From NCBI GenBank assembly GCA_025677605.1, contig GCA_025677605.1_4110.1: a stretch of DNA of 64,000 bases; one strand, 5' to 3'. The stretch comes from a phage. Positions within the stretch are counted from its first letter, which is position 1. Each line of letters opens with the position of its first letter. The notes beneath the pieces were generated by a model that saw only the letters and a program-made list of their open reading frames with translations, searched no databases and was not told the DNA's origin. This document shows positions 3,864 to 58,192 of this stretch, piece after piece. Both the position numbers and the translations under genes were made by a program.

Positions 3864-4493
3864 TTATACCCCTGCTCGAATAAGAGCACCGTACCATGTA
3901 ATACCACCATCATAGGTTTCTAGGGAAATTATATCTTTTTGGGATTGTTCATATGAAAGAAGAACTTGACGATTGAATGACCATTTCACATTAGAACTCC
4001 AGCTTACAAGATTTGAACCTGTGCCTTGTTCTATGATAACAGTGCAATCATATACTTGAGTTTTAGCATTAGGAAGGATATTAATTGTAGTGTTTGGTTT
4101 GTTTAGAGTTAAATTAAAAACTTTATTACCAGTACTGGTATCTATATCGTAACTATCAGCTTGTGGTAATACTGTCACAGTACTGTTGGAGCTATCATAT
4201 AATGTAACCCATTCAGTACTGTTTGTGTCATTTGTTGTGCGTGCTTGTATTTTAACACCGTTATTAGTCTCTGTCATCCCAGCCCACGCAGCAATCTGTA
4301 ACGATTGGTTGCTATCTGTTCCTAGTGTTGTAATCACTGAATTACTTAAATGATTATCTGCACCAGAAATTTCGTGTGTTCTGATAATATTAAAAGACGA
4401 TGTATCAAATGTTAATATTGGTTTTTTAAATTCAGCTTTCGAGAATTTAACAACACCAGTAACTTCCATTGTGGTGTAAAAGGAAATAGCCAT
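3864..4493 (-). CDS. hypothetical structural (fibre-like) protein
   Basis: 209 aa, Ser/Thr/Asn-rich beta-like composition typical of fibre or baseplate proteins; tightly coupled to downstream large gene. Confidence 0.45.
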   Translation of the reverse strand: MAISFYTTMEVTGVVKFSKAEFKKPILTFDTSSFNIIRTHEISGADNHLSNSVITTLGTDSNQSLQIAAWAGMTETNNGVKIQARTTNDTNSTEWVTLYDSSNSTVTVLPQADSYDIDTSTGNKVFNLTLNKPNTTINILPNAKTQVYDCTVIIEQGTGSNLVSWSSNVKWSFNRQVLLSYEQSQKDIISLETYDGGITWYGALIRAGV

Positions 4494-4577
4494 AATCCAT
4501 CCTTAAATTAGTTATTATTGGGTATTTATTGGTCTAAGTGGATTTTTTAGACCCATTTAGACCAATATTCAATAATA

Positions 4578-5819
4578 CTATTTCTTACCGTACCACTGCA
4601 TTTCTCGAATATCGATTAGAACTTTTGCAGCTAGTTGAATGTTTGGTTTCTTTGGTAGAACTGACTTAGGATACACCACATTGCGGATATAGTCAACCTT
4701 TTCATTGAAATAATCCATGACTTCTTCATACTTCCATTTACCGTTGCGGATATCCATTAGCATATCAGCATCAGGACGTTTAACAAGGATAATACCGCTT
4801 TGTAATGCTTCTTCGGCACTATTTAGCAGCCTGATCGTATGCATAGCATGTTTTAGATCGAAGCCGTGCTGTGATTCCATAAGAGCACGTTTAGCATTAC
4901 GATTCTCTTTCCATTTGTGATAACTTTTACGGTTCTCACTGTTCTCACTGTATTCTTTTTCATTGAATTTGACAATGAGTTCAGGTCGTACTTTCAATTC
5001 TTCAGTACTGCGTTCTTTGTTGAAATAACGTAAAGAACCATCAGCGTTAATTGTACTTTCATTAGGATTGATAATAACACCAAAGATATTTTCACCGTAA
5101 TGAATTAATTCGTACCCATTGTTATAATCCAATAAGTTGAAATCACGGTCTAGTACTTTATCAGTACTGTAATTATGTACTAAACGTACAAAATGATACT
5201 GTTTCAACGGATGAGTTGAAACTAACTGCAATGAAGTATCACGCATGTATTTTTCAAAATCTATTTTCTTAGCATTAAATGGATGTAGTTTAGAAGTATC
5301 TAAACGTTCTACCAAATAGTGTGGGAAGTTTTCATACATCCATGCTAAAGTTTCATCTACTGGAAAATCTTCTAAGATTTCATTTAGACGTTTTTCAGCA
5401 ATACGCTCTTTATCCATCCACCCGTGGTGATTGGACATACGCTTAACCTGATTATATGCATAACCGGTATAAGAGAATGCAATCTTAGAACTAAGTAATT
5501 GTTGATTGAATGTACGTAGATAATCATAGATTTCAGTACTTTCTACGATGTGTTCAGGATCAACCCATAGTGATTCAAGGATATTTGGGTTAGCCTCTGT
5601 GTATAGTCTTAAGTACTGATTTAGTTCATAGAATTTAGTATCTTCTTCTCTTGAATCAGAAACTTCTTTTACATTATAAAAAGGTGTCAGAATGAACTCT
5701 TTGTTAGCAAGAAAAATACCACGATAATCCGTATCACTTTCAGGTGTACTGGTTCCATACGCTTGTGAACCTGCTAAGTGCTTCACAATTGTTTGTTCAA
5801 GAAATTTGTTATTATTCAT
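4578..5819 (-). CDS. Pol-beta-superfamily nucleotidyltransferase domain protein
   Basis: N-terminal GSQAYGTSTPESDTDYRGIF fits the GS-x(9-13)-DxD nucleotidyltransferase signature; 413 aa. Confidence 0.55.
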   Translation of the reverse strand: MNNNKFLEQTIVKHLAGSQAYGTSTPESDTDYRGIFLANKEFILTPFYNVKEVSDSREEDTKFYELNQYLRLYTEANPNILESLWVDPEHIVESTEIYDYLRTFNQQLLSSKIAFSYTGYAYNQVKRMSNHHGWMDKERIAEKRLNEILEDFPVDETLAWMYENFPHYLVERLDTSKLHPFNAKKIDFEKYMRDTSLQLVSTHPLKQYHFVRLVHNYSTDKVLDRDFNLLDYNNGYELIHYGENIFGVIINPNESTINADGSLRYFNKERSTEELKVRPELIVKFNEKEYSENSENRKSYHKWKENRNAKRALMESQHGFDLKHAMHTIRLLNSAEEALQSGIILVKRPDADMLMDIRNGKWKYEEVMDYFNEKVDYIRNVVYPKSVLPKKPNIQLAAKVLIDIREMQWYGKK

Positions 5820-6220: not shown

Positions 6221-6724
6221 TTAACTCCTGTAATATTGTAAGTATTCGTTCTTTGCATCATCCAATTCTTTTTGTTCCTGAATTTTATTGTCGATATCTT
6301 TCACGTTAGTAATACTGTTATATAGTGCGTGAAGTACAAGAAAATCAGATACAGAAGTTGAAAAATCCTTCCACCCAACCGATATTTTAATACGCACACG
6401 TATATCACGTCCGTCCATCCAGAACATGAACCCTCGATTCCCACGTAAATCATTAATCATATACACTTTAAAACAAGAATCTCGTGTGCTGCTTTCTAGT
6501 CTTTCAAAATCTACATGAATACTGAACAAGTTTTTTGAACAGTACTTACAAAATGCATAGATAACAGGATCACATTTTGAAAGAAGATATTTGTTTTGGA
6601 TAATTTCTCTGCGATCTTTGTCTGATTTAATATTAGGTACTAATAAAGTACTTTTGTTTAAAATCAACGCAACTAAGTACTGAATAATATCATTATCTTT
6701 TACTTTATGTTTACCGAAGATCAT
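6221..6724 (-). CDS. fibre-module paralogue 3 (possible fibre chaperone or adhesin accessory)
   Basis: 167 aa; shares a K..L..K...D..R..I..K motif with the 166-aa and 186-aa neighbours. Confidence 0.5.
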   Translation of the reverse strand: MIFGKHKVKDNDIIQYLVALILNKSTLLVPNIKSDKDRREIIQNKYLLSKCDPVIYAFCKYCSKNLFSIHVDFERLESSTRDSCFKVYMINDLRGNRGFMFWMDGRDIRVRIKISVGWKDFSTSVSDFLVLHALYNSITNVKDIDNKIQEQKELDDAKNEYLQYYRS

Positions 6725-7224
6725 TAGTATAATCCTTTTAGTTTATTAAATTCATTAAGTTTATGCTGCTCGTATTCTAACTTCTTGTACTTTGTTTCAA
6801 GCTCACGAAGTGCAACGAGTAAATGAAACAAAAACATTTGTTCATGTTTAGGTAGAATATTCGCATCTCCGTTAATATAAACAAATGTATGTTTTTCATC
6901 ATAATCTTTAGATGAATATGTTACTGCATTAAAATCAACCTTAGTTTCGGTATCAAACAATTTTACACGGTTGATATGATTACCATATATGAATACTGGT
7001 TCATATAACCAACGTTCACCGTATGGTTCTTTAACTAGGTCTGTGATTAGTTTCATTAGAGAATGAGAACTTAACATTTCTTTAATTTTAAGTATAGTTC
7101 TACGATCTTCATCAGTACGGATAATTTCTTTTAAAGAATAGCTTTTCATCAGTACTGGAAGAATTAATGTACACCACTCTACATTTTCTCTTTTGTGATC
7201 ATTATTTTTCTTTTTGAAAAACAT
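6724..7224 (-). CDS. fibre-module paralogue 2
   Basis: 166 aa; TLILPVLMKSYSLKEIIRTDEDRRTILKIK aligns with TLVVRLLCKSVTLKDFVKTDNERKSLIELK of the upstream paralogue. Confidence 0.5.
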   Translation of the reverse strand: MFFKKKNNDHKRENVEWCTLILPVLMKSYSLKEIIRTDEDRRTILKIKEMLSSHSLMKLITDLVKEPYGERWLYEPVFIYGNHINRVKLFDTETKVDFNAVTYSSKDYDEKHTFVYINGDANILPKHEQMFLFHLLVALRELETKYKKLEYEQHKLNEFNKLKGLY

Positions 7225-11216: not shown

Positions 11217-13901
11217 TTACCAATTCACATTACCAGAACTTGAAGGGAACCCAGAACTAACTGGGAAGGAACTTCCGGCAGCGTCGAATGATGAACCAAA
11301 CAGGTCTAAACGCGAACGTTTTGCTATATTAATTTCGGTTATTTGTAAATTATCAGTTTTCACTGTACCAATCCAGAATATTGAATGAGTTTCAGCTAAT
11401 TCAGTTGTTGATATATGATAGTTTGCAATACCCTGTACTAATTTAATATACACATAAAATGTAGTATTGGCAGGATTTGCTTTCACAGTTGTTAAATCTA
11501 TATTTGATATTGGTAATGTATAGTGTTTACCGGATATCAGTACTGGTGTCTCTTCGGTGAAGTATATAATAAAACCTTGAGCAACATCTTGGGAAACAAG
11601 ACATATAAATGGATTTCCTTTATCAGTCCATGCATTATAATCCGCTAATGTTGTACCATATGTTCTAAAAATTGTTTTGTTATTATTATCTATACTTTGA
11701 AGAATACCAAACCCAATGTTAGGTAAAGCGAATGGTTGACCATCTAATGCATAGATCGGACGTGCACCAGCTATATGGAAATTATTAAATTGGGCTGTCG
11801 CTTTATCCACTGTAGCACGGAAAAATGGAGAGTTTGTATTACCAACTGTATTAAAGAAACCAGGAATACCACCACCAATGAAGTAGAAAGAACCCGCATC
11901 ATATATAGTAATACCAATACTTCCACTATCAAGATGATATGCGGTATCTGTTTTGTAATCCCCAGCTTGAACACTTTCATGTACTAAACGTTTGAACGAC
12001 CATGTTGTAATATCACCAGTTCTTGTATTGACATTCAATTCAACAACTCGAATATATAGACCACGGGCTGTAGTAGATGCTGCAAGAACACCAAAAACAG
12101 GAATATCAGTTTGTTGTGGAACAAATACAGATAATGTTTTTATTGATGCTGGTGATATATTCCATGAACTAGCAACTTTAGCAAATTCGGAATTTCTAAT
12201 GGAATTCATTATATCTTGTGACATACTGATTGTACCATTATTCAGTACATTACCTTTATAATCAAAACTAATTGGCGTTGATGTTCTATTATCAGCCACC
12301 AAAACACCACCATTAGTCGTTACCGTTGAACCAGAAATTGAACTTATAAAAATTCTAGATTCTGGTGTAGTTATAAACGCTCGGTCTGGTGTTGGTTCAT
12401 AGCCAAGAACATTACCATAGTCTAGAGACTTAAATGTAAAGTTCGGGGTAGCTTTATGTACAGCATAGGATGGATAAAAACGACCATCACCTGAACGTCT
12501 TGAATATTGCTTAGTACTGTTATTTGGTAATAACTCCACACCCACTTGGAATGAACCAACTGCTGAACCAAATCTTGGTGATACGACACCATTAATAAAA
12601 TCAGTTGCCGATACACTTCTAACATCCATTAAATCAAATAATGATTTGGGTGGGTATTTTGCATATGATATATTCAATGCTTCTGCAAGGTTTGGTGAAA
12701 ATGAGCAAAACGCATCCCCAGTTGATGGAACATAGCAATAATTACTGAAAATGTTACGTCCACCTGCGTGAAGATAAAACGGGTCAGTTGTTAAACATGG
12801 ACCAGATTCATTCATGCTTGTACCATTATCATAAACAGCAACTGGTGTAGTAGTTGTCATATTATCCAATGCACATTGCTTAGTAGCAATATCAAAAGTC
12901 ATACTAAAACTGTGTTGTGGTCGTATATCATATCTGCCGTTAGTCATCCACATATCGCCACATAATCTAAATTTAAATGTAGTTGTACCTGATTTCTGTG
13001 CAACATATAAATCTGGATCTGTCATATAAATACCAAACCCAATAATACCACTTGGAATTAAAACGTATGGATTATCATTGGTATTTGTTGAATTTATTTT
13101 CATAGTTGGAACAATATTGTCATCATATACCATTGCATTATAAAAAGTTCTTGTGGCCCAACCAGTAATTCTAGTAACACTATAAGTACCACCACCTGGG
13201 TTATTACTTGGACTAAAAGTAACTTTAACCACTGATATTTTAAGAGTATTGCTTGGTGTATCTAAACTGAAAAAGTATAATGCACCATCTTCTGCACGAA
13301 TAACAAATTGTACTTCACCAATTGGCCTAACTGAAGCATAGTCATCAATTAAAATTCCGGTATGCATTGCATCGTTCATTGTGCCATTATTAACGGATAC
13401 AAAAAGTTTATTAATTGAACCATTACTTGCCATACCACATGTAATATCATCACTACATGAATATAAATGGTATGCATAATAATCACCAAAATAATTTGGT
13501 TTATATGCACGAGTAGTATTAACCATACGACTTGTATTTGTTGTACCAACCGCCTGGGTCATATAACTATAATAAACCCCTTGTGTACTCCCATTTGTAC
13601 CAGGACGTAGCATTACTAAAGTGTTATCATCTTCCAAAAATAATTTTGTATTTCTGGATTTAGTATTTTCTGAAGAACCAACTGTTGTACCATTGACACC
13701 AGCAGGTAGATAGTTTTGTGTACCATAACGAGAAATGGGTAACATACCAACCATTTCCAGCATATCATCTTGTGTATATGCATCTATTGTGAGATTGCCA
13801 TTTTCATCAAATACGTTATCATTGATGCTCTGAACACTTCTCTTACCTTTGACTGTTACATTATGTGTAACATCAATGCCACCATATATTTTCTTTGCCA
13901 T
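11217..13901 (-). CDS. tail fibre protein
   Basis: 894 aa; fibre-like composition; C-terminal module QDVAQGF..YF..E.PV...GK...P......T homologous to the 913-aa fibre; ATG 13901 with AAGGGA RBS. Confidence 0.7.
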   Translation of the reverse strand: MAKKIYGGIDVTHNVTVKGKRSVQSINDNVFDENGNLTIDAYTQDDMLEMVGMLPISRYGTQNYLPAGVNGTTVGSSENTKSRNTKLFLEDDNTLVMLRPGTNGSTQGVYYSYMTQAVGTTNTSRMVNTTRAYKPNYFGDYYAYHLYSCSDDITCGMASNGSINKLFVSVNNGTMNDAMHTGILIDDYASVRPIGEVQFVIRAEDGALYFFSLDTPSNTLKISVVKVTFSPSNNPGGGTYSVTRITGWATRTFYNAMVYDDNIVPTMKINSTNTNDNPYVLIPSGIIGFGIYMTDPDLYVAQKSGTTTFKFRLCGDMWMTNGRYDIRPQHSFSMTFDIATKQCALDNMTTTTPVAVYDNGTSMNESGPCLTTDPFYLHAGGRNIFSNYCYVPSTGDAFCSFSPNLAEALNISYAKYPPKSLFDLMDVRSVSATDFINGVVSPRFGSAVGSFQVGVELLPNNSTKQYSRRSGDGRFYPSYAVHKATPNFTFKSLDYGNVLGYEPTPDRAFITTPESRIFISSISGSTVTTNGGVLVADNRTSTPISFDYKGNVLNNGTISMSQDIMNSIRNSEFAKVASSWNISPASIKTLSVFVPQQTDIPVFGVLAASTTARGLYIRVVELNVNTRTGDITTWSFKRLVHESVQAGDYKTDTAYHLDSGSIGITIYDAGSFYFIGGGIPGFFNTVGNTNSPFFRATVDKATAQFNNFHIAGARPIYALDGQPFALPNIGFGILQSIDNNNKTIFRTYGTTLADYNAWTDKGNPFICLVSQDVAQGFIIYFTEETPVLISGKHYTLPISNIDLTTVKANPANTTFYVYIKLVQGIANYHISTTELAETHSIFWIGTVKTDNLQITEINIAKRSRLDLFGSSFDAAGSSFPVSSGFPSSSGNVNW

Positions 13902-26425: not shown

Positions 26426-27028
26426 TTACAGCTTAGGATAGCTTAGTAAATCATACTCAGCACTAACGCTGGTAACATTATCACTTACAATTTTGAAGAT
26501 AGAATCGGTGCGATCAACCATCTTAACACCTGTTTCTTTTTGAACTTCAATATATGCTTGCATAGCTGCAATTGCATGATATGTACCACTACCAACAGAT
26601 GTAATTTGTGTCTTAGGTTGGAGTACTGAAAAATCCTCTTGAACTTCATAAATTGTATGATTATGAAGAATAATAAACTGTCCACCACCAACGTCTTGAG
26701 TTGTATCACGAGCACCCCATTCTTCTTTAAATAGTGTGCGAATACGTGGGATTACCTCAAGTACTAAGTACTGTGAGAATGTTTGGTTTGATTGCTGTTC
26801 AGGTAAATCAAGTTTATACGTCAGCAATTGTCCCATGCGGAAGCTCGACGTGTATCCCATTGCCATAACTTCTTTGGTGCGATTCAATCCACTTTCATCG
26901 ATTTTGATGAATTCTTTTTCAAACACTTTTGGTTCAGTTTGAATTGCTTTAGTGAAACCATTACTACCCAGTTTGTCACCCGCGATAAAAGATGTGTTAC
27001 CATCAGTGTAAGCAATAATACAAGTCAT
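26426..27028 (-). CDS. HslV/proteasome-beta-like Ntn-hydrolase
   Basis: N-terminus MTCIIAYTDGNTSFIAGD aligns with HslV TTIVSVRRNGHVVIAGD (Thr1 nucleophile); later SVGSGTYHAIAAMQA resembles the GSG...A motif. Confidence 0.6.
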   Translation of the reverse strand: MTCIIAYTDGNTSFIAGDKLGSNGFTKAIQTEPKVFEKEFIKIDESGLNRTKEVMAMGYTSSFRMGQLLTYKLDLPEQQSNQTFSQYLVLEVIPRIRTLFKEEWGARDTTQDVGGGQFIILHNHTIYEVQEDFSVLQPKTQITSVGSGTYHAIAAMQAYIEVQKETGVKMVDRTDSIFKIVSDNVTSVSAEYDLLSYPKL

Positions 27029-27039
27029 TGATATCTCCG

Positions 27040-27336
27040 TTATAAAAGATGCATTACATCTAAGATTGTGTACATGAAATACAATAGTAAACCCAAAATT
27101 ATGAGTAAAATTGTATACGAAATTTTAAAGAAATAATAAAAGTACTTTTCAGTTTTAGAAGAAAACTCACCATTTTCTTCAAGAAAACCACTCTTGAAAT
27201 CACTTGCCATAATCACTGATAAAAGAACAATGATTCCATATGTAACTATAGTAGCATAGAAGATGAACTCTGTCCAGCCTTGAAGATGTGATAATTCTGT
27301 CATTTTTTGTTTCCTTGGTTGATAATGTACAACCAT
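27040..27336 (-). CDS. small membrane protein
   Basis: 98 aa with several hydrophobic segments. Confidence 0.5.
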   Translation of the reverse strand: MVVHYQPRKQKMTELSHLQGWTEFIFYATIVTYGIIVLLSVIMASDFKSGFLEENGEFSSKTEKYFYYFFKISYTILLIILGLLLYFMYTILDVMHLL

Positions 27337-27430
27337 TATATCTTAAAATCGGGTGGCAGTACACCACCCTTAACCAAAATCATGAATTAGTATTAGGATT
27401 ATATCATTGCTTCATAAAAAATACAACTTT

Positions 27431-28036
27431 TTATTGAATGATTCCCCATTTAACGAGATCTGATCTTCGTAATACAACGATATCCTCACCATGTTTAGTA
27501 CTGATATCAATGAGTGTTTCAGCGGGGATACCGTTATGTGCGTACAGTGTAAAAAGATACCCAACTTTAGTTGAGACTTGATGTGTAAACTCCATCAACT
27601 GTCTAACTGAAACGAATGTCGTATCTGGATCTGCACCATTCGTAGATACTAGTGAGATGTTATGTAAACCCATCACTGCGGTATCACTCATATCCCTACG
27701 TTCAGATGATGCAGAGAAAAAAACCAGACTACAAGACGAATTACATTGCTTTGGGACATAAACAGTTAACTTTTTAGCAGCCACAAAAAATCCCAAATCT
27801 AATCCTGCATCAAAATCTCCACCAGGTGATGTTATTGTTATAATTTTAAATCTTGTTTCTTTCCACAACTTCTTCACTTCTTGTACAGTTTCATCATTTA
27901 GTTCACCATCAATTGACACAACATGTTCATTTAATAGAAAAACAGATGATTTTTTTGAAACTTCTGCCGCTGCCGGAAAGTTTAATGCAGCGATTAAAAC
28001 AACGGTTTGTACAATCTCTTTCAAGATTCGTTTCAT
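27431..28036 (-). CDS. secreted ClpP/S49-like serine-protease-fold protein
   Basis: N-terminal signal peptide ending AAAEV; ITSPGGDFDAGLDL resembles the ClpP INSPGG..AGLAIYD motif. Confidence 0.45.
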   Translation of the reverse strand: MKRILKEIVQTVVLIAALNFPAAAEVSKKSSVFLLNEHVVSIDGELNDETVQEVKKLWKETRFKIITITSPGGDFDAGLDLGFFVAAKKLTVYVPKQCNSSCSLVFFSASSERRDMSDTAVMGLHNISLVSTNGADPDTTFVSVRQLMEFTHQVSTKVGYLFTLYAHNGIPAETLIDISTKHGEDIVVLRRSDLVKWGIIQ

Positions 28037-28234
28037 TGATTACCTCGGATTTGAGTTAAGGAACATAAATAATAGTACAATAATTGATCAATTATGTCAA
28101 GTGCAAAACTGAACAATTATGACTGTAGTATCAAGTGTTTTTGTTAAGTTCATTGATTTACCAATTGACCATTTGAACTATGGTATCATATTGGGAGGCA
28201 GTTTACAATCCCATTTTTAAGGTAAGGAGATGTT
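28037..28234. promoter_or_regulatory. divergent intergenic control region
   Basis: 198-bp AT-rich gap between divergent genes; TTGACC and TATCAT hexamers, GTTTAC at 28201, duplicated CAATTATG and palindrome TTGATCAA; AAGGAG RBS before ATG 28235. Confidence 0.35.
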
Positions 28235-28750
28235 ATGAAACCAATAGCTGGCTTAGATCAATTTCCATTTGTTATAGGTGGATTGCAGGTTACTGCTGCA
28301 AAGATAGAAGGGCAAGTATTTGTTAAAGAATTGTATGTTATAAAACAAAGAACATTCGATTCATATGATTTAATATCTGAAAATTTCAAGATTTACAAAG
28401 ATATAAAAATCACAGGTAGAAATAAAGATAAATCAACATTGTTGTATGATGATGACGATGCTGAAATTGCTAAATCTTTAGCAAATAATACATTTTGCAT
28501 AAAAGAAGCTGATGCTATTAATAATAAGTATGGTTTTGGTATTCAATATCAAAGTAATAAAATAAAATTACATAATGGTGAAATAATTTTCAGAAGAACG
28601 AACGTGGAGCCAAATTCGTTGTCTAAAGTTATAATAAAGCCAGATGATTTTGTTCTTTATTCAAATGATAAAATGCAATTCACTGCTTACTTCTCTCCGA
28701 AAGATTGGCCTGACCAAACCAGATTTCCACCGTATGCTCGTTTCCAATAA
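28235..28750 (+). CDS. island paralogue A (shared N-terminal domain only)
   Basis: 171 aa; AAGGAG RBS; N-terminal ~130 aa homologous to N-termini of the two following plus-strand ORFs. Confidence 0.8.
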   Translation: MKPIAGLDQFPFVIGGLQVTAAKIEGQVFVKELYVIKQRTFDSYDLISENFKIYKDIKITGRNKDKSTLLYDDDDAEIAKSLANNTFCIKEADAINNKYGFGIQYQSNKIKLHNGEIIFRRTNVEPNSLSKVIIKPDDFVLYSNDKMQFTAYFSPKDWPDQTRFPPYARFQ

Positions 28751-28761
28751 CTTTATATTTT

Positions 28762-28788
28762 AAGGAGTCTTCGGACTCCTTTTTTTAA
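28762..28788 (+). terminator. rho-independent terminator
   Basis: stem ggagtc/gactcc with TTCG tetraloop (28764-28779) followed by T8. Confidence 0.7.
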
Positions 28789-28810
28789 TCCTAAAATACT
28801 TTTGGTATAA

Positions 28811-28818
28811 TATAAATA
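28811..28818 (+). promoter_or_regulatory. T4-type late promoter motif TATAAATA
   Basis: tataaata located 37 nt upstream of ATG 28855, after the terminator. Confidence 0.4.
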
Positions 28819-28854
28819 ATATAACACTACAATACAATTTATAAAGGAAAGTAT

Positions 28855-31023
28855 ATGAAAGCAATATCTAGTGAAGGTAAATTGCCTTTTGGTATTGGTG
28901 GTATTAAAGTTTCTGTCGCTAAAATCGATGGTAAGGTGTTAACCGAAACTTTATATATTAACCGTCAACGTTCCGGTAACGTGTATGATCTCATCAATGA
29001 TAATGGTGATATCTATTACAAAGTTTCCATGCGTTGGTATGATACTCGTGGTATCGACATTCCAAATTCTGTTGAACCAGCAGACGCAATTAATATGGTT
29101 CAAGACAATTCATTCATGATCTATGTTGATGATGGTATTAGCATGGGATATACTATGCTTTATATGGGTCGTGTTATTAAATTAAATAATGGTCGCATCG
29201 TAAAACGCGATTATGTTAATGCTGATATCCCCGTAACTGGTGTTGTAATTACACCCAAAGATGCATCTCTTAAAGTTGGTGCAACAAAACAACTATCAGC
29301 CCAAGTAGTTCCATCTAATGCAAAAGACAAGGCAGTAACCTACTCTTCATCTGCTCCTACAATCGTTGAAGTTGATGCTCAAACAGGTCTAGCAACTGCA
29401 CTTGCAAATGGCAATGCTGATGTAACCGTAACAACTCACGATGGTGATTTCACAGATGTGTGTTCTATCGTTGTCAGTACTGGTGTTACAGGTGTTACTG
29501 TTTCTCCTAAAACTGCAACGGTGAATGTTGGAGAAACTCAACAATTGTTAGCTGAAGTTTCTCCTGCATCTGCAACTGATAAGAAAGTTACATGGGCTTC
29601 ATCTGCTCCATCCGTTGCAACAGTTGATAAAGATTCTGGGTTGGTAACAGGTGTATCCAATGGTGATGTTACTATTACTGCAACAACTGAAGATGGTTCA
29701 TTGACTGATACTTCTTCTATTAAAGTTCAAACAGCAGTAACTGGTGTTACGTTAACACCTGAAACATATACATTCACTACTATTGGTGCAAATGAACCAT
29801 TAACAGCAACGGTACTACCAAGAACTGCATCAAATCAGGAAGTTCGTTATGAATCTTCTGCACCTACAGTAGCAGAAGTTGATGATGACGGTTTAGTAAC
29901 TTCTGTTAATAATGGTACTGCCACTATTACCGTAACAACTATTGATGGTGAAAAAACCGCACAATCAATTATTGATGTGACGATCCCAGTAACTGGTATT
30001 AACCTAACACCTGCAACCGCTTCATTAACTTCTGTTGGTGCAACACAGCAATTAACTGCAACTGTTCTACCAGCTAATGCTCGTAACAAAGCAGTAACAT
30101 ACGCAACTTCTGCTGCTGGTGTTGCAACCGTTAGTACAAGTGGTTTAATCACTGCGGTAGCGAATGGCACTGCTAATATCACGGCTACTACTGCTGATGG
30201 TGGCTTTAGTAAAGTTTGTGCAGTAACTGTAGCAATTCCAGTTCCAGTAACAACTATTAATGTTACTCCAGCAACTAAAACATTGACTGCTGTTAACGCA
30301 ACTCAAGCAATGGCTGCTGAAGTTCTTCCAGCTAACGCAACTAATAAAGCTGTAACATGGTCTTCTAGTGCACCTGCTGTAGCGAAAGTTGATGCTAGTA
30401 CTGGTGTTGTAACTGCGTTAACTAACGGTACTGCAAACATTATCGCAACTGCCGCTGATGGAAGTGGTAAAACAGGTCAAGGTGTCATTACTGTGTCAAT
30501 CCCAGTTCCTGTAGCTAGTGTTTCTGTTTCTCCAACAACAGCAACATTAACATCTGTTGGTGCAACTCAACAACTAACACCAACTGTACTACCAGCTAAT
30601 GCTACTAACAAAGCAGTAACTTATAGTACTTCTGCTGCTGGGGTCGCAACTGTTAGTGCAAGTGGTTTAATCACTGCTGTTGCAAACGGTACTGCTGATA
30701 TCACTGTAAAAACTACTGATGGTGCAAAAACTGCAAAATGTGCTGTAACTGTTAATATTCCAGTACCAGTATCCAGCGTTGGTTTAACACCTAAAGCCAC
30801 TGATCTTTCACTATCAGGTACTAAAACAGTTCAACTAGTTCCAGAAGTTCTTCCAGCTAACGCAACTAACAAATCAGTAACTTATAGTGCAGATGAACCT
30901 ACTAAAGTATCTATTAGTGATGATGGATTAGTAACTGCTCTAGAAGAAGGTACTGTAGTCATTACAGTGACTACTGTGAATGGCAATAAAACTGATACTG
31001 CAACTGTAACAATCAGTGCTTAA
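28855..31023 (+). CDS. island paralogue B: shared N-terminal domain fused to seven tandem Big_2 (bacterial Ig-like) domains
   Basis: 722 aa; N-terminal domain paralogous to A and C; then seven ~85-aa repeats of pattern VTGV.. P.tat..vG.tqqL.a.VLPanAtnK.VT..SS.p.vAtV...GlvTav.nGTa.ITa.T.DG. Confidence 0.85.
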   Translation: MKAISSEGKLPFGIGGIKVSVAKIDGKVLTETLYINRQRSGNVYDLINDNGDIYYKVSMRWYDTRGIDIPNSVEPADAINMVQDNSFMIYVDDGISMGYTMLYMGRVIKLNNGRIVKRDYVNADIPVTGVVITPKDASLKVGATKQLSAQVVPSNAKDKAVTYSSSAPTIVEVDAQTGLATALANGNADVTVTTHDGDFTDVCSIVVSTGVTGVTVSPKTATVNVGETQQLLAEVSPASATDKKVTWASSAPSVATVDKDSGLVTGVSNGDVTITATTEDGSLTDTSSIKVQTAVTGVTLTPETYTFTTIGANEPLTATVLPRTASNQEVRYESSAPTVAEVDDDGLVTSVNNGTATITVTTIDGEKTAQSIIDVTIPVTGINLTPATASLTSVGATQQLTATVLPANARNKAVTYATSAAGVATVSTSGLITAVANGTANITATTADGGFSKVCAVTVAIPVPVTTINVTPATKTLTAVNATQAMAAEVLPANATNKAVTWSSSAPAVAKVDASTGVVTALTNGTANIIATAADGSGKTGQGVITVSIPVPVASVSVSPTTATLTSVGATQQLTPTVLPANATNKAVTYSTSAAGVATVSASGLITAVANGTADITVKTTDGAKTAKCAVTVNIPVPVSSVGLTPKATDLSLSGTKTVQLVPEVLPANATNKSVTYSADEPTKVSISDDGLVTALEEGTVVITVTTVNGNKTDTATVTISA
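29236..31020 (+). repeat. tandem array of seven Big_2-coding repeats (~255 bp each)
   Basis: repeat units 4 and 6 (about 30010-30180 and 30550-30720) are roughly 85 percent identical at DNA level by eye. Confidence 0.7.
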
Positions 31024-31038
31024 TTTTTAATAATATAG

Positions 31039-31060
31039 TGCATGAAAATTATCATGCACT
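31039..31060 (+). promoter_or_regulatory. inverted repeat between island genes B and C
   Basis: gtgcatg-aaaattat-catgcac perfect 7-bp inverted repeat without a T-run. Confidence 0.3.
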
Positions 31061-31080
31061 TTACTTGGAGAAGTATAATA

Positions 31081-31455
31081 ATGGGTAAACCAATTGCATT
31101 AACCGGAAGACTTCCTTTTTCTATTAATGGTATCGAAATTACTGGTGCTAAAATTAATGGAGCAGCTATTCTTGGTAAACTATATATTTTAAAACAACGT
31201 TCAGCACATACTTATGATCTAATCGATGAAAGCGGTAAGGTTTATGAATATGTTCAGATGGTGTATAGAAATAAAGATTCATATATCATGAATTTCGAAG
31301 ATTCAGATGAAAGCCTTGTAGAAAGCCTAAGAGATAATACTTTCTTCATTAAATTGAAAGATGAAGAAGCAGGTATTGAAGGGTTTTGCACTATGTACAT
31401 GATTCACAAAATTAAATTACATAATGGACAATACATCCTACGTAAAAAAGCATAA
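31081..31455 (+). CDS. island paralogue C (shared N-terminal domain only)
   Basis: likely ATG 31081 (MGKPIALTG...) with GGAGAAG RBS; 124 aa homologous to N-termini of A and B. Confidence 0.75.
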   Translation: MGKPIALTGRLPFSINGIEITGAKINGAAILGKLYILKQRSAHTYDLIDESGKVYEYVQMVYRNKDSYIMNFEDSDESLVESLRDNTFFIKLKDEEAGIEGFCTMYMIHKIKLHNGQYILRKKA

Positions 31456-31482
31456 TAAAAAAGGAGCCATAGGCTCCTTTTC
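31456..31482. terminator. bidirectional rho-independent terminator
   Basis: stem ggagcc/ggctcc with loop ata, flanked by A7 upstream and T4 downstream; sits between convergent genes. Confidence 0.6.
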
Positions 31483-31743
31483 TCATTTATTTAACTTTTC
31501 AACAACATAATCAACATCAATTTGGTTATCATAGTAAATTGTAAAGCCAAATCTACCAGTTACTTTCATTTCACGACCAGTAGTGTGGCTAACATTCACA
31601 ATGTAGTACTTGTTATTATGCGGGGAAAAACGTACTTGATAATTCTTATTACCACGCATTGAATAATCAGTATCAACTAAACAATAGATAGCAAACAATA
31701 CAAATATAACAATACAACCTAGAAACAAATATACCATTGTCAT
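31483..31743 (-). CDS. small membrane protein
   Basis: 86 aa with N-terminal TM segment VYLFLGCIVIFVLFAIYCLV. Confidence 0.5.
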   Translation of the reverse strand: MTMVYLFLGCIVIFVLFAIYCLVDTDYSMRGNKNYQVRFSPHNNKYYIVNVSHTTGREMKVTGRFGFTIYYDNQIDVDYVVEKLNK

Positions 31744-32698: not shown

Positions 32699-33208
32699 TC
32701 ACTCCTTTAATTTTAAAGATTCAACCATCTCTTCACACATTTTCATGTGATGATATTGTTTTTCATCTAAAGTATATGGGATATTACGACCTTGTAAATC
32801 CATACTAATATCATAATTTCTATACATAAATGACGAGTGCTTAATCATAAATGTTACAGCTTCCCAAACTTTACCCGATTCTTCATATATTTCCTTAGTA
32901 TTGATTGATGTTAATTTTCTAATTTTTTTAATATCCATACCAACAATTGTTGAATTGAAATCAAGTCCAATGTAATTAAAATTCATACAATTATATCTTA
33001 ATACTAGTCCATCTCCCTCAGTTATAGTAGTAAGAAACCACTGGTAATCATTAATTTTATGATACCATTTTCTTGTATTCAAATAATTATCGTACCATTT
33101 CTTGGTTATTTCTATTGCTTCAGTACTGATATTTTTTGCGTACTCATTTATTAAAAACATATTTTTTGAGAACTCAATACTGCTTTCTTTAGTGATTTTA
33201 AAGATCAT
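32699..33208 (-). CDS. hypothetical protein
   Basis: 169 aa ORF. Confidence 0.5.
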   Translation of the reverse strand: MIFKITKESSIEFSKNMFLINEYAKNISTEAIEITKKWYDNYLNTRKWYHKINDYQWFLTTITEGDGLVLRYNCMNFNYIGLDFNSTIVGMDIKKIRKLTSINTKEIYEESGKVWEAVTFMIKHSSFMYRNYDISMDLQGRNIPYTLDEKQYHHMKMCEEMVESLKLKE

Positions 33209-33561
33209 TAAAGTATTACCTCCTTCCTAGTGTTACTTGCGTCGCACCAATAAAAGACGTGCCAGTCAGGAAACTCCTTCTTTATTTGTACTGCACAAGC
33301 TTGACTTAATATATGTGATGCTTGTTGGATCATAAACATCCCAGGTGCTTCCACATTTATCATATCCGATGGTGACAGATATGAACTCCAATTGGATGCC
33401 TCCCAAATTTGCTGGTAAACATACAAGCTATGCATTAAACCTGCACTAAAAAGTTTTTTGTATCCATCAAGATCATCATTAATCCAATAGTCTCCTGTTT
33501 CAGAAGTCCATATAGGATCAGATGAATAATCCATATCAACAGAAATGTAAACTTTACTCAT
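33208..33561 (-). CDS. hypothetical protein
   Basis: 117 aa ORF. Confidence 0.5.
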   Translation of the reverse strand: MSKVYISVDMDYSSDPIWTSETGDYWINDDLDGYKKLFSAGLMHSLYVYQQIWEASNWSSYLSPSDMINVEAPGMFMIQQASHILSQACAVQIKKEFPDWHVFYWCDASNTRKEVIL

Positions 33562-33581
33562 ATAATTTACCTATGCGAAAA

Positions 33582-33599
33582 GGGAGTACAATGACTCCC
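33582..33599 (-). terminator. terminator-like hairpin
   Basis: stem gggagt/actccc with loop acaatg followed on minus strand by uuuucg. Confidence 0.4.
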
Positions 33600-33609
33600 A
33601 TTTATTTAA

Positions 33610-34056
33610 TCACTTTTCGGTCGGTGTATAGTTATATTGTTGACAATCTTCAACAGTTAATACACCTTCATCGTAGCCGTACTGAAGTACAATATCAAAT
33701 GCTTCATCTACCATAGTAACAACATCACGATAACGGACAATAGTATGTGCACGTTTTTCAACAGCTTTCATGATACCCATTAGCAGCCATTTACCTTCGT
33801 CGGTATGTAGTTTTGCAAAACGTGGTCGTTTAGTTGCTGCCATAATATCAGTCCAATCAGCCTTAAAGACTTCAGGACGTTTAGGTATATCAAACAATGT
33901 AGTTGGGAAGGTTACATTGTTTTTCTTCATTGCGTCAGCTTGTGCAGCACGATAGCCTTGACGGAAAATTGGATGCTGCATTTTAAGTTGTTCTGGTGAC
34001 AATACTAGTTTATTTTTAAACGCATCATAACCATCTTTGTATTGTTCATTAGCCAT
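33610..34056 (-). CDS. hypothetical protein
   Basis: track ORF trimmed to internal ATG (MANEQYKDGY) to remove overlap with upstream gene; start uncertain. Confidence 0.45.
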   Translation of the reverse strand: MANEQYKDGYDAFKNKLVLSPEQLKMQHPIFRQGYRAAQADAMKKNNVTFPTTLFDIPKRPEVFKADWTDIMAATKRPRFAKLHTDEGKWLLMGIMKAVEKRAHTIVRYRDVVTMVDEAFDIVLQYGYDEGVLTVEDCQQYNYTPTEK

Positions 34057-34060
34057 TGTA

Positions 34061-34354
34061 TTATTCCTTATCTTCTGTGCTGACAGCTTTTTTCTCGTTG
34101 AATGAACCGTGTTCGGCTCGCAAATTTGCAGCATATTGCACCGCATCAATTGGTTTAATATTGTTCTTCATAAGAACTTCTTGCATCAATTCAAGAATTT
34201 CAGCCATACCAACCAGTAGGTCTTCTGATTCTTTAATGTCTTTTAGTGCTAACGCTTGAGTACTGATCTGCTCTAGTGCAGTACTGATGAATTCCGAATC
34301 ATCAAGAATTTCAACTTCTTCAGTGCTAGAGTTTCGTACAAGTTTCTTTGACAT
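34061..34354 (-). CDS. small acidic protein immediately downstream of clpP
   Basis: 97 aa, Glu/Asp-rich, helical composition. Confidence 0.5.
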   Translation of the reverse strand: MSKKLVRNSSTEEVEILDDSEFISTALEQISTQALALKDIKESEDLLVGMAEILELMQEVLMKNNIKPIDAVQYAANLRAEHGSFNEKKAVSTEDKE

Positions 34355-34417
34355 TTTAACTCCTTAGAAAATGCCCCACAAAGTGAGGCATAATATATTT
34401 TAAGTTTTAGTACTGAA

Positions 34418-35113
34418 TTATACCCACTCTTCCACGCCACCGCGACGTTTAACTAGGTATTGACCTTTTTCATTACGTGGACCAAGGATAATACCATCGA
34501 TAAATCCAAGTTCACCATACTCAAGTGCTTCATCTGCACTCAACCACAAATCGCGGTCCGCATCTTCTAGTAGTTTTTCATGAGAAACACCTACAGCTTC
34601 AGCGATTTCTTTCGTCAGCAATGTGTTCAATGCATCAGAGTGTTTTAGTGCAATTTTCTGATCAGTGATCAGACCTTGTGTACCAGAACTTACTTGGTGA
34701 CACATAAAGTACGAGCGTTTACCACCAAGACGATAACCTTTAGTACCAACTACTGATTGTGTGTAGCAACCCATTGATGCTGCATAACCCATCACTACTG
34801 TGCGGATTGGTGATACACAAGATTTAGCAATATCAGAAATACCCAAACCTGCATGAACACTACCACCCGGCGAGGAAATATAAAGAGTAATTGGTTCAGA
34901 ACCTTGAGAATCCAACCACACCAATTGTTGCTTGATGATATGTGCCATCTGGTCGTTGAAATCAGTATCAAGGAAAATGATACGGTCTTGCATCATACGA
35001 GATGCTAGATCATAAGTACGTTCGTTGCCATTAACTTTTTCAACTACATATGGAATTGAAATGTTAGTTGTTTCACCATTCGCATAACCACCAAACATAA
35101 ATTGTTGAGTCAT
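34418..35113 (-). CDS. clpP: ATP-dependent Clp protease proteolytic subunit-like serine peptidase
   Basis: ISSPGGSVHAGLGI, catalytic GYAASMG, HQ and DRD motifs collinear with ClpP. Confidence 0.85.
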   Translation of the reverse strand: MTQQFMFGGYANGETTNISIPYVVEKVNGNERTYDLASRMMQDRIIFLDTDFNDQMAHIIKQQLVWLDSQGSEPITLYISSPGGSVHAGLGISDIAKSCVSPIRTVVMGYAASMGCYTQSVVGTKGYRLGGKRSYFMCHQVSSGTQGLITDQKIALKHSDALNTLLTKEIAEAVGVSHEKLLEDADRDLWLSADEALEYGELGFIDGIILGPRNEKGQYLVKRRGGVEEWV

Positions 35114-57499: not shown

Positions 57500-58192
57500 T
57501 ATTATTCCTTTTTAGGAAACATCAAATAATGTACTCGATGTTGATTTCGTTTGCACTCAATCAACATCAGTAGAATTAATTCATCGCTACGCTCTGAATA
57601 ATTCTAATAGTACTAAATGGTTTTAATTAATATTGACGAGGTTTGGAAGAGCATATTTCATCCCCCCACTGGGGGAAAGAATTAAAATTTGACGCTGGTG
57701 GTCTTCACATATTTCATATCACGAATTCTCTTAACGAGGCGAAAGCGGGTTGCTCTGTTTCTCTCTATCGCGGTTCTTGTAGCAACGGTCGTCGGTCTTA
57801 AACATCCCGACACATAATACGAGTACCATATGAACAGTACTGGTATTTGATTTCACCAAATTTTGGACGCAACTATCTTGTACAAATAGTTGACCGCAAT
57901 TTCTAATGAAATCTCCCTTAGCAAATCTGGTAAGGTGCGATCCTTATATGTCTATCTAGGAACTCTCTGTGTGCTTATCGGAGTTCTTTATACAGCCGCA
58001 TTGCCGTGAGGGGTTCATAATATGCCCACATCTGACGGGTTTCATCTGCTGTTCGTACTGAAAGGACTACTCATCTACCCTCTACATTTTCGAGTGGATT
58101 AGGCTCTTAATCATTTCCATATGGAACCTTTCAGGATTAAAAAAAAAGAGTGACAAAGATATATTGCCACTCATCATTATATCACCAAGAAT
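57500..58192. other. ORF-free, GC-richer intergenic region; candidate structured non-coding RNA or decayed element
   Basis: no ORF of 60 aa or more in any frame; visibly more G+C than flanking DNA; G/C hairpin cccccc-act-ggggg at about 57662-57675. Confidence 0.4.

What the first reader, a model, noticed from the sequence alone, without database searches (positions are those of the whole stretch)
28037..31490. Self-contained plus-strand island: three paralogous genes, one with seven Big_2 Ig-like repeats
This is the only plus-strand coding block in 64 kb. Its three ORFs share a ~125-aa N-terminal domain (MKPIAGLDQFPFVIGGLQVTAAKIEG / MKAISSEGKLPFGIGGIKVSVAKIDG / MGKPIALTGRLPFSINGIEITGAKING). 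The middle one adds seven tandem Big_2-type repeats and is preceded by a TTCG-tetraloop terminator and a TATAAATA late-promoter motif; the block ends in a bidirectional terminator. The layout fits a family with a common anchor domain and different displayed parts (capsid or tail decoration, or a secreted or surface-active protein), and the near-identical DNA repeats give scope for repeat-number variation. The shared N-terminal domain is not one I can place in a known family.
Basis: partly seen in the sequence, partly recalled or inferred. Interest (0 to 1): 0.75.

Follow-up and report, generated by a model that had tools for sequence, protein, structure and literature searches.

The report
Jumbo-phage anchor-plus-Ig virion protein island
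This is a small late-gene island of a 121Q/RaK2-type jumbo E. coli phage that encodes three related virion-surface proteins sharing an uncharacterised N-terminal attachment domain (one carries a seven-domain Ig-like fibre, one is anchor only, one is the stump of a once-giant gene), and it gains and loses genes and Ig domains quickly between related phages.

Summary
The window is an Asteriusvirus jumbo phage, 99% identical to Escherichia phage A4. Positions 28037-31482 are its only plus-strand coding block. The three ORFs share a ~120-aa N-domain (pairwise BLASTP E 5e-22 to 9e-34), and ORF2 has seven Big_2 domains. One detail is wrong: the Ig repeats are 56-76% identical in DNA, not near-identical.

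The N-domain defines a small family confined to phages (PHROG 33171/10468; 99 clusters among 1.84 billion proteins). It always starts at residue 1. It is followed by nothing, or by up to about 1,700 aa of Ig-like modules or, in some members, sequence with no recognised domain. The island is syntenic across RaK2-like phages and holds one to four paralogues. Orthologues are abundant virion proteins: phAPEC6 gp347 had 75% MS coverage, level with the major capsid protein.

AlphaFold gives a confident all-beta fold with no solved whole-domain counterpart. It is unrelated to T4 Hoc.

ORF1 is the 5' stump of a gene that is 1,859 codons long in a relative. It decays or is deleted in close relatives, as is ORF3.

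Best reading: late-expressed surface decoration built as anchor plus Ig display. This works like Hoc or T5 pb10 but uses a different anchor. The binding site on the virion is unknown.

The parts
28065..28074 (+). ATAAATAATA late-promoter-like motif upstream of ORF1, about 160 nt before its ATG
   Evidence: One of only two copies of this 10-mer in 64 kb. It is intact in A4 but mutated in UE-S1 and ph0011, which have deleted ORF1. ATAAATA is the predicted late promoter of CBB/GAP32.
28235..28750 (+). ORF1 (171 aa): intact N-domain plus a 50-aa disordered tail. It is the 5' stump of a gene that is 1,859 codons long in a relative.
   Evidence: 76% identical to residues 1-169 of the L017 protein, and DNA homology stops near 28717. 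AF2 gives pLDDT 86-98 for residues 21-120 (67 for 11-20) and 32-50 for residues 121-171. A4 has a nonsense mutation plus a 12-nt deletion; UE-S1 and ph0011 have deleted the gene.
28762..28781 (+). Intrinsic terminator with a TTCG loop, after ORF1
   Evidence: 8-bp stem, 4 G-C pairs, T-run. It is degraded in UE-S1 and ph0011.
28811..28821 (+). TATAAATAATA late-promoter-like motif, 34 nt before the ORF2 ATG
   Evidence: It is invariant in A4, UE-S1 and ph0011. A similar ATAAATA lies upstream of most orthologues.
28855..29235 (+). ORF2 N-terminal anchor domain (aa 1-127)
   Evidence: HMM and BLASTP matches to ORF1 and ORF3. 88-90% identical to UE-S1 and ph0011.
29236..31023 (+). ORF2 array of seven Big_2 Ig-like domains (aa 128-722) plus the stop codon
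   Evidence: Pfam Big_2 E 2e-116, 7 stretches. Orthologues carry 6 (UE-S1) and 9 (ph0011) domains.
31037..31060 (.). Conserved 9-bp hairpin immediately after the ORF2 stop codon
   Evidence: The stem is identical and the loop varies in UE-S1 and ph0011. There is no T-run on the + strand, so its function is not established.
31081..31455 (+). ORF3 (124 aa): anchor-domain-only paralogue
   Evidence: A4_463 'putative structural protein'. PHROG 10468 and 33171. AF2 pLDDT 86.6, pTM 0.81. Only decayed remnants remain in UE-S1 and ph0011.
31457..31483 (.). Bidirectional intrinsic terminator that closes the island and the convergent - strand gene
   Evidence: Found on both strands. A terminator is annotated at the same place in UE-S1.

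Best explanation
The island is a late-transcribed, fast-evolving cassette of a RaK2/121Q-type jumbo phage. It encodes paralogous virion-surface decoration proteins.

Each protein starts with the same ~120-aa all-beta domain, which I infer to be the module that attaches the protein to the assembled particle. Its strongly conserved but flexible N-terminal arm (MGKPIAG..PF) is the likely contact. Whatever follows the domain projects outward.
- ORF2 displays a string of seven Big_2 Ig-like domains. By analogy with the 18-nm, four-domain Hoc fibre, this would be a flexible fibre of roughly 25-30 nm, probably for weak, multivalent adhesion to glycans or cell surfaces.
- ORF3 is the anchor alone. It would occupy the same or equivalent sites without a fibre.
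- ORF1 is a truncated leftover of a giant paralogue. If it still works, it works only as another anchor-only protein.

Shown here or in cited papers:
- the paralogy;
- the domain architecture;
- the family-wide layout of an N-terminal domain with a variable C-terminus;
- synteny of the island;
- virion presence of orthologues;
- gain and loss of genes and domains between relatives.

Inferred:
- late timing;
- that the N-domain is the anchor;
- the site, where I lean to the capsid surface over the tail;
- the adhesive role of the Ig array.
For: Identity and context:
- The window is an Asteriusvirus, and the island is syntenic in all RaK2-like phages, on the opposite strand between a protease or NMN-adenylyltransferase gene and dCMP deaminase.

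Family architecture:
- 99 clusters were found among 1.84 billion representative proteins. In nearly all of them the N-domain starts at residue 1, and lengths run from 102 to 1,859 aa.
- C-termini are Big_2, Invasin_D3/Big_1, HYDIN-like Ig, or unassigned.

Virion association of orthologues:
- phAPEC6 gp347 (N-domain only, same locus) gave 8 peptides and 75.2% coverage, the highest in the table and level with the major capsid protein at 74.9%.
- CBB_112 was detected in virions.
- 121Q gp471 and gp155 are annotated as structural proteins.
- phAPEC6 and 121Q cryo-EM maps contain unassigned surface densities: one copy per capsid protein, and one at each hexamer centre.

Structure and conservation:
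- The AF2 model is confident (pLDDT 86.6). Residues 1-9 are disordered, yet this is the most conserved stretch of the family.
- Between the window and UE-S1/ph0011 the N-domain is more conserved (88-90%) than the proximal Ig domains (64-69%).

Late-promoter evidence:
- ATAAATA occurs 8 times against about 50 expected. Copies sit before ORF1, ORF2 and a tail-fibre gene (literature).
Against: - No experiment or structure places the N-domain on any virion component.
- The anchor role rests on architecture and on analogy with Hoc and pb10.
- No proteomic or transcript data exist for this phage itself.
- 121Q and phAPEC6 look 'hairy' although their copy at this locus has no Ig array, so the visible fibres there must be other proteins.
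- ORF1 and ORF3 are lost in close relatives, so they are dispensable and may contribute little.
- No glycan-binding site or binding assay supports adhesion.
Confidence: 0.65

Rival explanations
1. Same architecture, but the anchor binds the tail (sheath rings, collar or baseplate periphery) rather than the capsid. The proteins would then be tail whiskers or tail decoration.
For: - phAPEC6, 121Q and CBB carry hair-like fibres and unassigned decoration densities on the tail.
- Big_2 domains are common on tail tube and tail fibre proteins (PHROG and PDB hits).
- RefSeq labels several orthologues 'major tail protein'.
Against: - Those labels come from the Big_2 part only. The PHROG 'major tail protein' matches all lie in residues 121-720.
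- The N-domain has no fold similarity to tube or sheath proteins.
- MS coverage of gp347 equals that of the capsid protein, which suggests hundreds to thousands of copies. That fits a T=28 capsid surface better than a few tail rings.
- GAP32 carries the family too, and the CBB authors looked for whisker genes among those absent from GAP32.
Confidence: 0.2
2. The N-domain is itself the functional part: a capsid cement protein that stabilises the very large T=28 shell, in the manner of Soc or gpD. The Ig arrays would be optional add-ons of little consequence.
For: - The N-domain-only form is the sole copy at this locus in 121Q, phAPEC6 and PBECO4, and it is highly abundant there.
- An elongated second-layer protein, present once per capsid protein, is unassigned in phAPEC6.
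- The predicted fold resembles tandem small beta-barrels, which could be elongated.
Against: - UE-S1 and ph0011 have lost both anchor-only genes at this locus and keep only the Ig-bearing one.
- Ig arrays of 6-9 domains, and proteins of up to 1,859 aa, are maintained as open reading frames.
- The phAPEC6 authors could not exclude that the second layer is a domain of the capsid protein itself.
Confidence: 0.2
3. ORF2 is a primary or accessory receptor-binding adhesin that determines host range, and the hypervariability of the island reflects an arms race with host surface structures.
For: - Intimin- and invasin-type Ig arrays are adhesins.
- RaK2 authors suggested a host-interaction role for the orthologue gp496.
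- The proximal Ig domains diverge faster than the rest of the protein.
Against: - These phages have elaborate dedicated tail fibre and spike sets.
- 121Q-type phages infect E. coli with no Ig array at this locus.
- No enzymatic or lectin tip domain follows the Ig array in ORF2.
Confidence: 0.1
4. The proteins are not virion components in this phage. They would be secreted, intracellular, or non-functional remnants.
For: - ORF1 is clearly decaying.
- No proteomics exist for this phage.
Against: - Orthologues have been detected in purified virions of two phages.
- ORF2 and ORF3 are intact, have Shine-Dalgarno sequences, and are 99% conserved in A4.
- There is no signal-peptide-like N-terminus (sequence).
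Confidence: 0.04

Closest known systems
T4 Hoc (highly immunogenic outer capsid protein)
   Same: Both are non-essential-looking surface proteins. Both have one conserved capsid-binding module plus a string of variable Ig-like domains, and the domain number varies between related phages (PMC10385173 abstract). Both appear to be expressed late.
   Different: - The anchor is N-terminal here and C-terminal in Hoc.
- No sequence relation was found (hhalign probability 1%, BLASTP E 1.8), and tblastn found no T4-like phage.
- The Ig type here is Big_2.
- There are several paralogues per genome, including anchor-only forms.
- The binding site is unknown.
T5 pb10 decoration protein
   Same: [quoted passage not shown]
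   Different: - This family has 0-9 or more Ig domains, against one in pb10.
- Here there are multiple paralogues in a hypervariable island.
PHROG 33171 / PHROG 10468 'virion structural protein' (121Q gp471 and gp155, phAPEC6 gp347, RaK2 gp496, CBB_112)
   Same: This is the family the three ORFs belong to (E 2e-18 to 5e-20 for ORF1 and ORF3; 1.5e-13 for ORF2). The locus, strand arrangement and N-domain are the same.
   Different: - The window's phage has three tandem copies at the locus, against one in most relatives.
- One copy carries a 7-domain array and one is a stump.
- The family has no Pfam or NCBIfam model, no solved structure and no tested function.
Big_2-bearing tail tube or 'major tail' proteins (lambda gpV C-terminus, T5 pb6) and intimin/invasin
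   Same: All share Big_2 Ig-like domains.
   Different: Only the Ig part matches. The N-domain is not a tube fold, and there is no outer-membrane beta-barrel or lectin tip as in intimin.

Membership tests
RaK2-like jumbo-phage N-domain virion protein family (PHROG 33171/10468) | Significant profile match to the ~120-aa N-domain, placed at the very N-terminus | tested here: met
   PHROG E-values are 5e-20 (ORF1), 1.5e-13 (ORF2) and 2e-18 (ORF3). In the family-wide search the domain starts at residue 1 in nearly all of the 99 hits.
RaK2-like jumbo-phage N-domain virion protein family (PHROG 33171/10468) | Syntenic opposite-strand island between a protease or NMN-adenylyltransferase gene and dCMP deaminase | tested here: met
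   Same neighbours in A4, UE-S1, ph0011, 121Q, phAPEC6, RaK2, Munch, XbC2, Yen9-04, Turkey5, EJP2 and metagenomic contigs.
RaK2-like jumbo-phage N-domain virion protein family (PHROG 33171/10468) | Presence in purified virions | not testable with these tools
   Shown by MS for the orthologues phAPEC6 gp347 and CBB_112. No data exist for this phage.
Big_2 (PF02368) Ig-like domain proteins | Pfam match above the gathering threshold | tested here: met
   ORF2 scores 380.5 bits against a cut-off of 22.8, with 7 stretches. ORF1 and ORF3 have none; ORF1 keeps only half a domain.
T4 Hoc family | Homologous capsid-binding domain | tested here: not met
   hhalign of the N-domain profile against T4 Hoc gives probability 1%. 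BLASTP of ORF2 against Hoc gives E 1.8. No T4-like phage appears among the tblastn hits.
T4 Hoc family | One copy bound at the centre of each capsid hexamer | not testable with these tools
   phAPEC6 and 121Q maps show an unassigned protein at the hexamer centre, but nothing links it to this family.
T5 pb10-type decoration | pb10-like N-terminal capsid-binding fold | tested here: not met
   [not shown]
Tail tube / 'major tail protein' | Tail-tube fold or profile match outside the Ig domains | tested here: not met
   The PHROG 'major tail protein' matches all lie within ORF2 residues 121-720, the Big_2 array. The N-domain model has no tube-protein match.
Peptidase S24 / LexA-CI beta-domain | Pfam match above threshold and a conserved Ser-Lys dyad | tested here: not met
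   [not shown]

The most novel reading that the evidence does not exclude
The ~120-aa N-domain is a previously unrecognised, phage-specific virion-docking fold. It would underlie a 'plug-and-display' system in RaK2-like jumbo phages. Several diverged paralogues would compete for, or partition among, quasi-equivalent sites on the T=28 shell: anchor-only, short-Ig, long-Ig and giant forms. The surface would then be a tunable mosaic, with its composition reset by rapid gene birth, truncation and loss at one late-gene hotspot. Anchor-only proteins would act as spacers that set fibre density.
Probability: 0.2. Interest if true: 0.6.

Novelty: new variant of a known kind. Interest (0 to 1): 0.42.

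Why it matters
Ig-decorated phage surfaces such as Hoc and pb10 are used for antigen display. They are also thought to govern phage retention in mucus and on epithelia.

This family would provide a second, unrelated anchor for such display on some of the largest known capsids. It could also identify abundant surface densities that remain unassigned in 121Q and phAPEC6 maps.

The island is a clear natural example of modular turnover. Across relatives it holds 0 to 9 or more Ig domains and 1 to 4 paralogues, with truncation and deletion caught in progress. That is useful for understanding how phages retune their surfaces.

It is not a new principle, and the family was already flagged as 'structural' in databases.

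Tried and rejected
- **Solved structures, by sequence.** A search of all PDB chains with the N-domain profile found nothing (best E 0.8).
- **Curated families.** Pfam and NCBIfam have no model for the N-domain. The weak Peptidase_S24 and CI-repressor hits were rejected: they are below threshold and the Ser is not conserved.
- **Hoc homology.** Rejected. A 2026 paper on a 'Hoc-like mucin-binding protein' of Klebsiella phage PMBT63 turned out to concern a true T4-type Hoc, not this family.
- **Slippage-prone repeats.** Rejected. TRF finds no array and DNA identity is 56-76%.
- **Collection scans.**
  - IMG/VR scans with window-derived patterns found nothing.
  - A scan with patterns from the CBB-like subgroup found 11 loci, mostly with a single 218-303-aa gene.
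  - A bacterial and archaeal genome scan with ORF3 found no relative.
- **RNA genes.** There are no tRNA or Rfam RNA genes in the window.
- **Literature.** I found no high-resolution structure of a 121Q/RaK2-type virion that assigns this protein.
Full report
**What the window is.** The 3.5-kb region is 99% identical to Escherichia phage A4 (355 kb, genus Asteriusvirus) and 83-88% identical to parts of phages UE-S1 and ph0011. So the window comes from a 121Q/PBECO4/RaK2-type jumbo myovirus. G+C is about 35% throughout, and GC skew changes sign only over the island, as expected for a switch of coding strand.

**Checking the observation.**
- ORFs lie at 28235-28750 (171 aa), 28855-31023 (722 aa) and 31081-31455 (124 aa).
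- Their first ~120 residues are homologous: BLASTP E 5e-22, 3e-22 and 9e-34, with 30-43% identity.
- ORF2 has seven Big_2 domains (Pfam E 2e-116, 7 stretches; boundaries at aa 128-722).
- Every other + strand ORF of 80 aa or more is nested in a longer - strand ORF. The only large stretch free of - strand ORFs is 28037-31482. A4's annotation shows no other opposite-strand gene across the whole region.
- The TTCG-loop terminator (28762-28781) and the bidirectional terminator (31457-31483) are both found. TATAAATA is at 28811.
- One statement fails. The Ig repeats are 56-76% identical in DNA and 41-74% in protein, and TRF sees no array.

**The family.**
- All three proteins match PHROG 33171 and/or 10468, labelled 'virion structural protein'. 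Pfam and NCBIfam have no model for the N-domain.
- tblastn finds the domain in 70 phage records. All are RaK2-like jumbo phages of Escherichia, Klebsiella, Salmonella, Erwinia, Yersinia, Serratia, Cronobacter, Pectobacterium and Xanthomonas, with usually two places per genome.
- A full HMM search of 1.84 billion representative proteins gives only 99 clusters. In nearly all of them the domain starts at residue 1. Lengths run from 102 to 1,859 aa.
- What follows the domain is nothing, or Big_2, Invasin_D3/Big_1, HYDIN-type Ig domains, or unassigned sequence.
- The most conserved stretch of the family is the extreme N-terminus, MGKPIAG....PF, followed by KQRS....DL.

**The locus.** In every relative examined the gene or genes sit on the opposite strand to their neighbours. 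They lie between a ClpP-like protease or NMN-adenylyltransferase gene and dCMP deaminase. The content differs widely.

| Phage or contig | N-domain genes at the locus |
|---|---|
| 121Q, phAPEC6 | 125 aa (N-domain only) |
| RaK2 | 212 aa |
| Munch | 224 aa |
| XbC2 | 218 aa |
| Turkey5 | 302 aa |
| UE-S1 | 633 aa |
| ph0011 | 890 aa |
| Yen9-04 | two tandem genes, 345 + 301 aa |
| EJP2 | two genes, 218 + 139 aa |
| Metagenomic contig L016 | four tandem genes, 231-631 aa |
| Metagenomic contig L019 | 820 + 298 aa |
| Metagenomic contig L017 | 1,859 aa, followed by further large genes |

- Eleven IMG/VR loci of the CBB/GAP32 type mostly hold a single 218-303-aa gene.
- A second, separately conserved paralogue of about 380 aa (121Q gp155 is 384 aa; CBB gp483 is 377 aa) is also a lone opposite-strand gene in an early block.

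**Turnover at the island.**
- *ORF1.* It is collinear with the first 169 residues of the 1,859-aa L017 protein (76% identity). DNA homology between the two genomes stops near 28717, inside the first Ig-like domain. AlphaFold folds ORF1's N-domain confidently (pLDDT 86-98) but leaves residues 121-171 disordered (pLDDT 32-50). So ORF1 is the 5' stump of a once-giant gene.
- *Decay of ORF1 in relatives.* In A4 it carries a TTG-to-TAG change and a 12-nt deletion. In UE-S1 and ph0011 it has been deleted, leaving the leader and the last ~50 nt. Its upstream ATAAATAATA is mutated in exactly those two phages.
- *ORF3.* UE-S1 and ph0011 retain only broken remnants of it.
- *121Q.* Its 'gene 472' is a remnant of another N-domain paralogue.
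- *ORF2 orthologues.* They have 6 (UE-S1), 7 (window, A4) and 9 (ph0011) Big_2 domains. Domain-by-domain matching shows gain and loss of whole domains. Window repeat 6 is absent from UE-S1, and ph0011 has two extra.
- *Relative conservation.* The N-domain (88-90% identity) and the distal repeats (87-92%) are better conserved than the first three repeats (64-69%).

**Expression signals.**
- ATAAATA was proposed as the late promoter of CBB and GAP32, upstream of structural genes, and resembles T4's TATAAATA (PMC5259590).
- In the window ATAAATA occurs 8 times against about 50 expected. The extended ATAAATAATA occurs only twice, before ORF1 and before ORF2.
- A - strand copy lies 36 nt before a tail-fibre gene (PHROG 32568, E 4e-57). 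Another lies before an 894-aa gene whose size matches a phAPEC6 virion protein (the size match is my inference).
- A similar motif precedes most orthologues.
- ORF3 has no such motif. It follows a conserved hairpin and is probably co-transcribed with ORF2 (inference).
- Late expression is therefore likely but not shown.

**Virion association.**
- In phAPEC6, an isolate of the 121Q species, the protein at this locus (gp347, 14.1 kDa, N-domain only) was found in purified virions with 8 unique peptides and 75.2% coverage. That is the highest coverage in the table and equal to the major capsid protein at 74.9%.
- The other paralogue is probably gp077 (42.9 kDa, 37.8% coverage). I matched it through its neighbour gp078c and 121Q gp154.
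- CBB_112, the 218-aa paralogue mislabelled 'major tail protein', was also detected.
- The 10-Å phAPEC6 map and the 121Q map show two unassigned surface components. One is an elongated second layer with one copy per capsid protein. The other is a protein at each hexamer centre that anchors fibres.
- Nothing yet ties either density to this family.

**Structure.**
- AlphaFold2 with a 19-sequence alignment gives a confident model of ORF3: pLDDT 86.6, pTM 0.81, eleven strands and one short helix. Residues 1-9 are disordered.
- Foldseek against the whole PDB finds nothing (best E 0.4).
- BFVD returns family members, two proteins of Agrobacterium jumbo phage Atu_ph07, and a few uncultured-phage proteins. 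All are uncharacterised.
- T4 Hoc is unrelated (hhalign probability 1%, BLASTP E 1.8).
- pb10 and tail-tube proteins do not appear among the fold matches.

**Interpretation.** The best-supported reading is a set of late, surface-exposed virion proteins built as anchor plus display. It works like Hoc (anchor plus Ig string, variable number of domains) and has the domain order of T5 pb10. It is not a member of either family.

I lean to a capsid site because of the abundance of the anchor-only orthologue and the unassigned capsid densities. A tail site remains possible. The conserved, flexible N-terminal arm is the obvious candidate for the contact, but this is an inference.

The Ig array would give a fibre of roughly 25-30 nm. 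This is scaled from the 18-nm, four-domain Hoc fibre (PMC10385173). Adhesion to glycans or surfaces is a plausible function that has not been tested.

The anchor-only proteins are dispensable in some relatives and are the only form present in others. This argues that what selection keeps is at least one N-domain protein at the site, with the displayed part free to vary.

**Verdict.** This is a real feature and largely as described. It is a catalogued but uncharacterised family, so it is a new variant of a known kind of system rather than a new kind.
- the identification of the phage clade;
- published virion evidence for orthologues;
- the family-wide rule that the domain is always N-terminal;
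- the absence of any solved counterpart for the fold;
- the demonstration that ORF1 is a stump;
- the finding that the island turns over rapidly.

Noticed in passing
window 28037-28234 (- strand promoter 28100->28072): The 200-nt region between the island and the - strand protease gene holds a good sigma-70-type promoter (TTGACA-17-TACTAT) pointing leftward, plus the ORF1 late motif pointing rightward. These are divergent early and late promoters. The region stays about 95% conserved in UE-S1 and ph0011 even though ORF1 is deleted there.
   Followed up: partly
window, whole; copies at 4529(-), 10726(-), 13939(-), 14273(-), 22431(-), 13026(+), 28065(+), 28812(+): ATAAATA is about six-fold under-represented (8 copies against ~50 expected). 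Several copies lie 35-40 nt before likely late genes: a tail-fibre gene at 3864-4493 and an 894-aa gene at 11217-13901. This suggests T4-like late promoters scattered through an otherwise early-looking, single-strand gene block.
   Followed up: partly
window 31037-31060: A hairpin lies directly after the ORF2 stop codon. Its 9-bp stem is identical in UE-S1 and ph0011 while the loop differs. There is no T-run on the + strand. It could be an RNA stability or processing element, or a weak terminator.
   Followed up: no
L005 (121Q) 4870-5001; L001 (A4) 6236-6739: 121Q 'gene 472' (43 aa) is a leftover of an N-domain paralogue. A4's two small CDSs, A4_466 and A4_465, are the two halves of ORF1, split by a nonsense mutation.
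   Followed up: yes
L017 11603-17580 (metagenomic relative): After the 1,859-aa N-domain protein, the island of this relative continues with + strand genes of 874, 713, 84 and at least 325 aa read in the locus (the gene call is 680 aa and runs past the locus end). None has an N-domain. They may be partners or further fibre components.
   Followed up: no
RefSeq records NC_019526 (RaK2), NC_027399 (K64-1), NC_041878 (CBB), OP292654 (XbC2): Orthologues are labelled 'major tail protein'. The label follows only from the Big_2 domain and is very probably wrong for a myovirus that has its own tube protein.
   Followed up: partly
window 57500-58192: A 693-nt stretch has no ORF of 60 aa or more on either strand (longest 52 aa), no tRNA, no Rfam match and no notable repeats. 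It corresponds to an unannotated gap in A4.
   Followed up: partly
window 26426-28036 and about 33000-35000 (- strand): The island is flanked by an unusual concentration of protease-like genes (ClpP/crotonase-like, HslV-like and ClpP). The window also carries two separate dCMP deaminase genes, according to A4's annotation.
   Followed up: no
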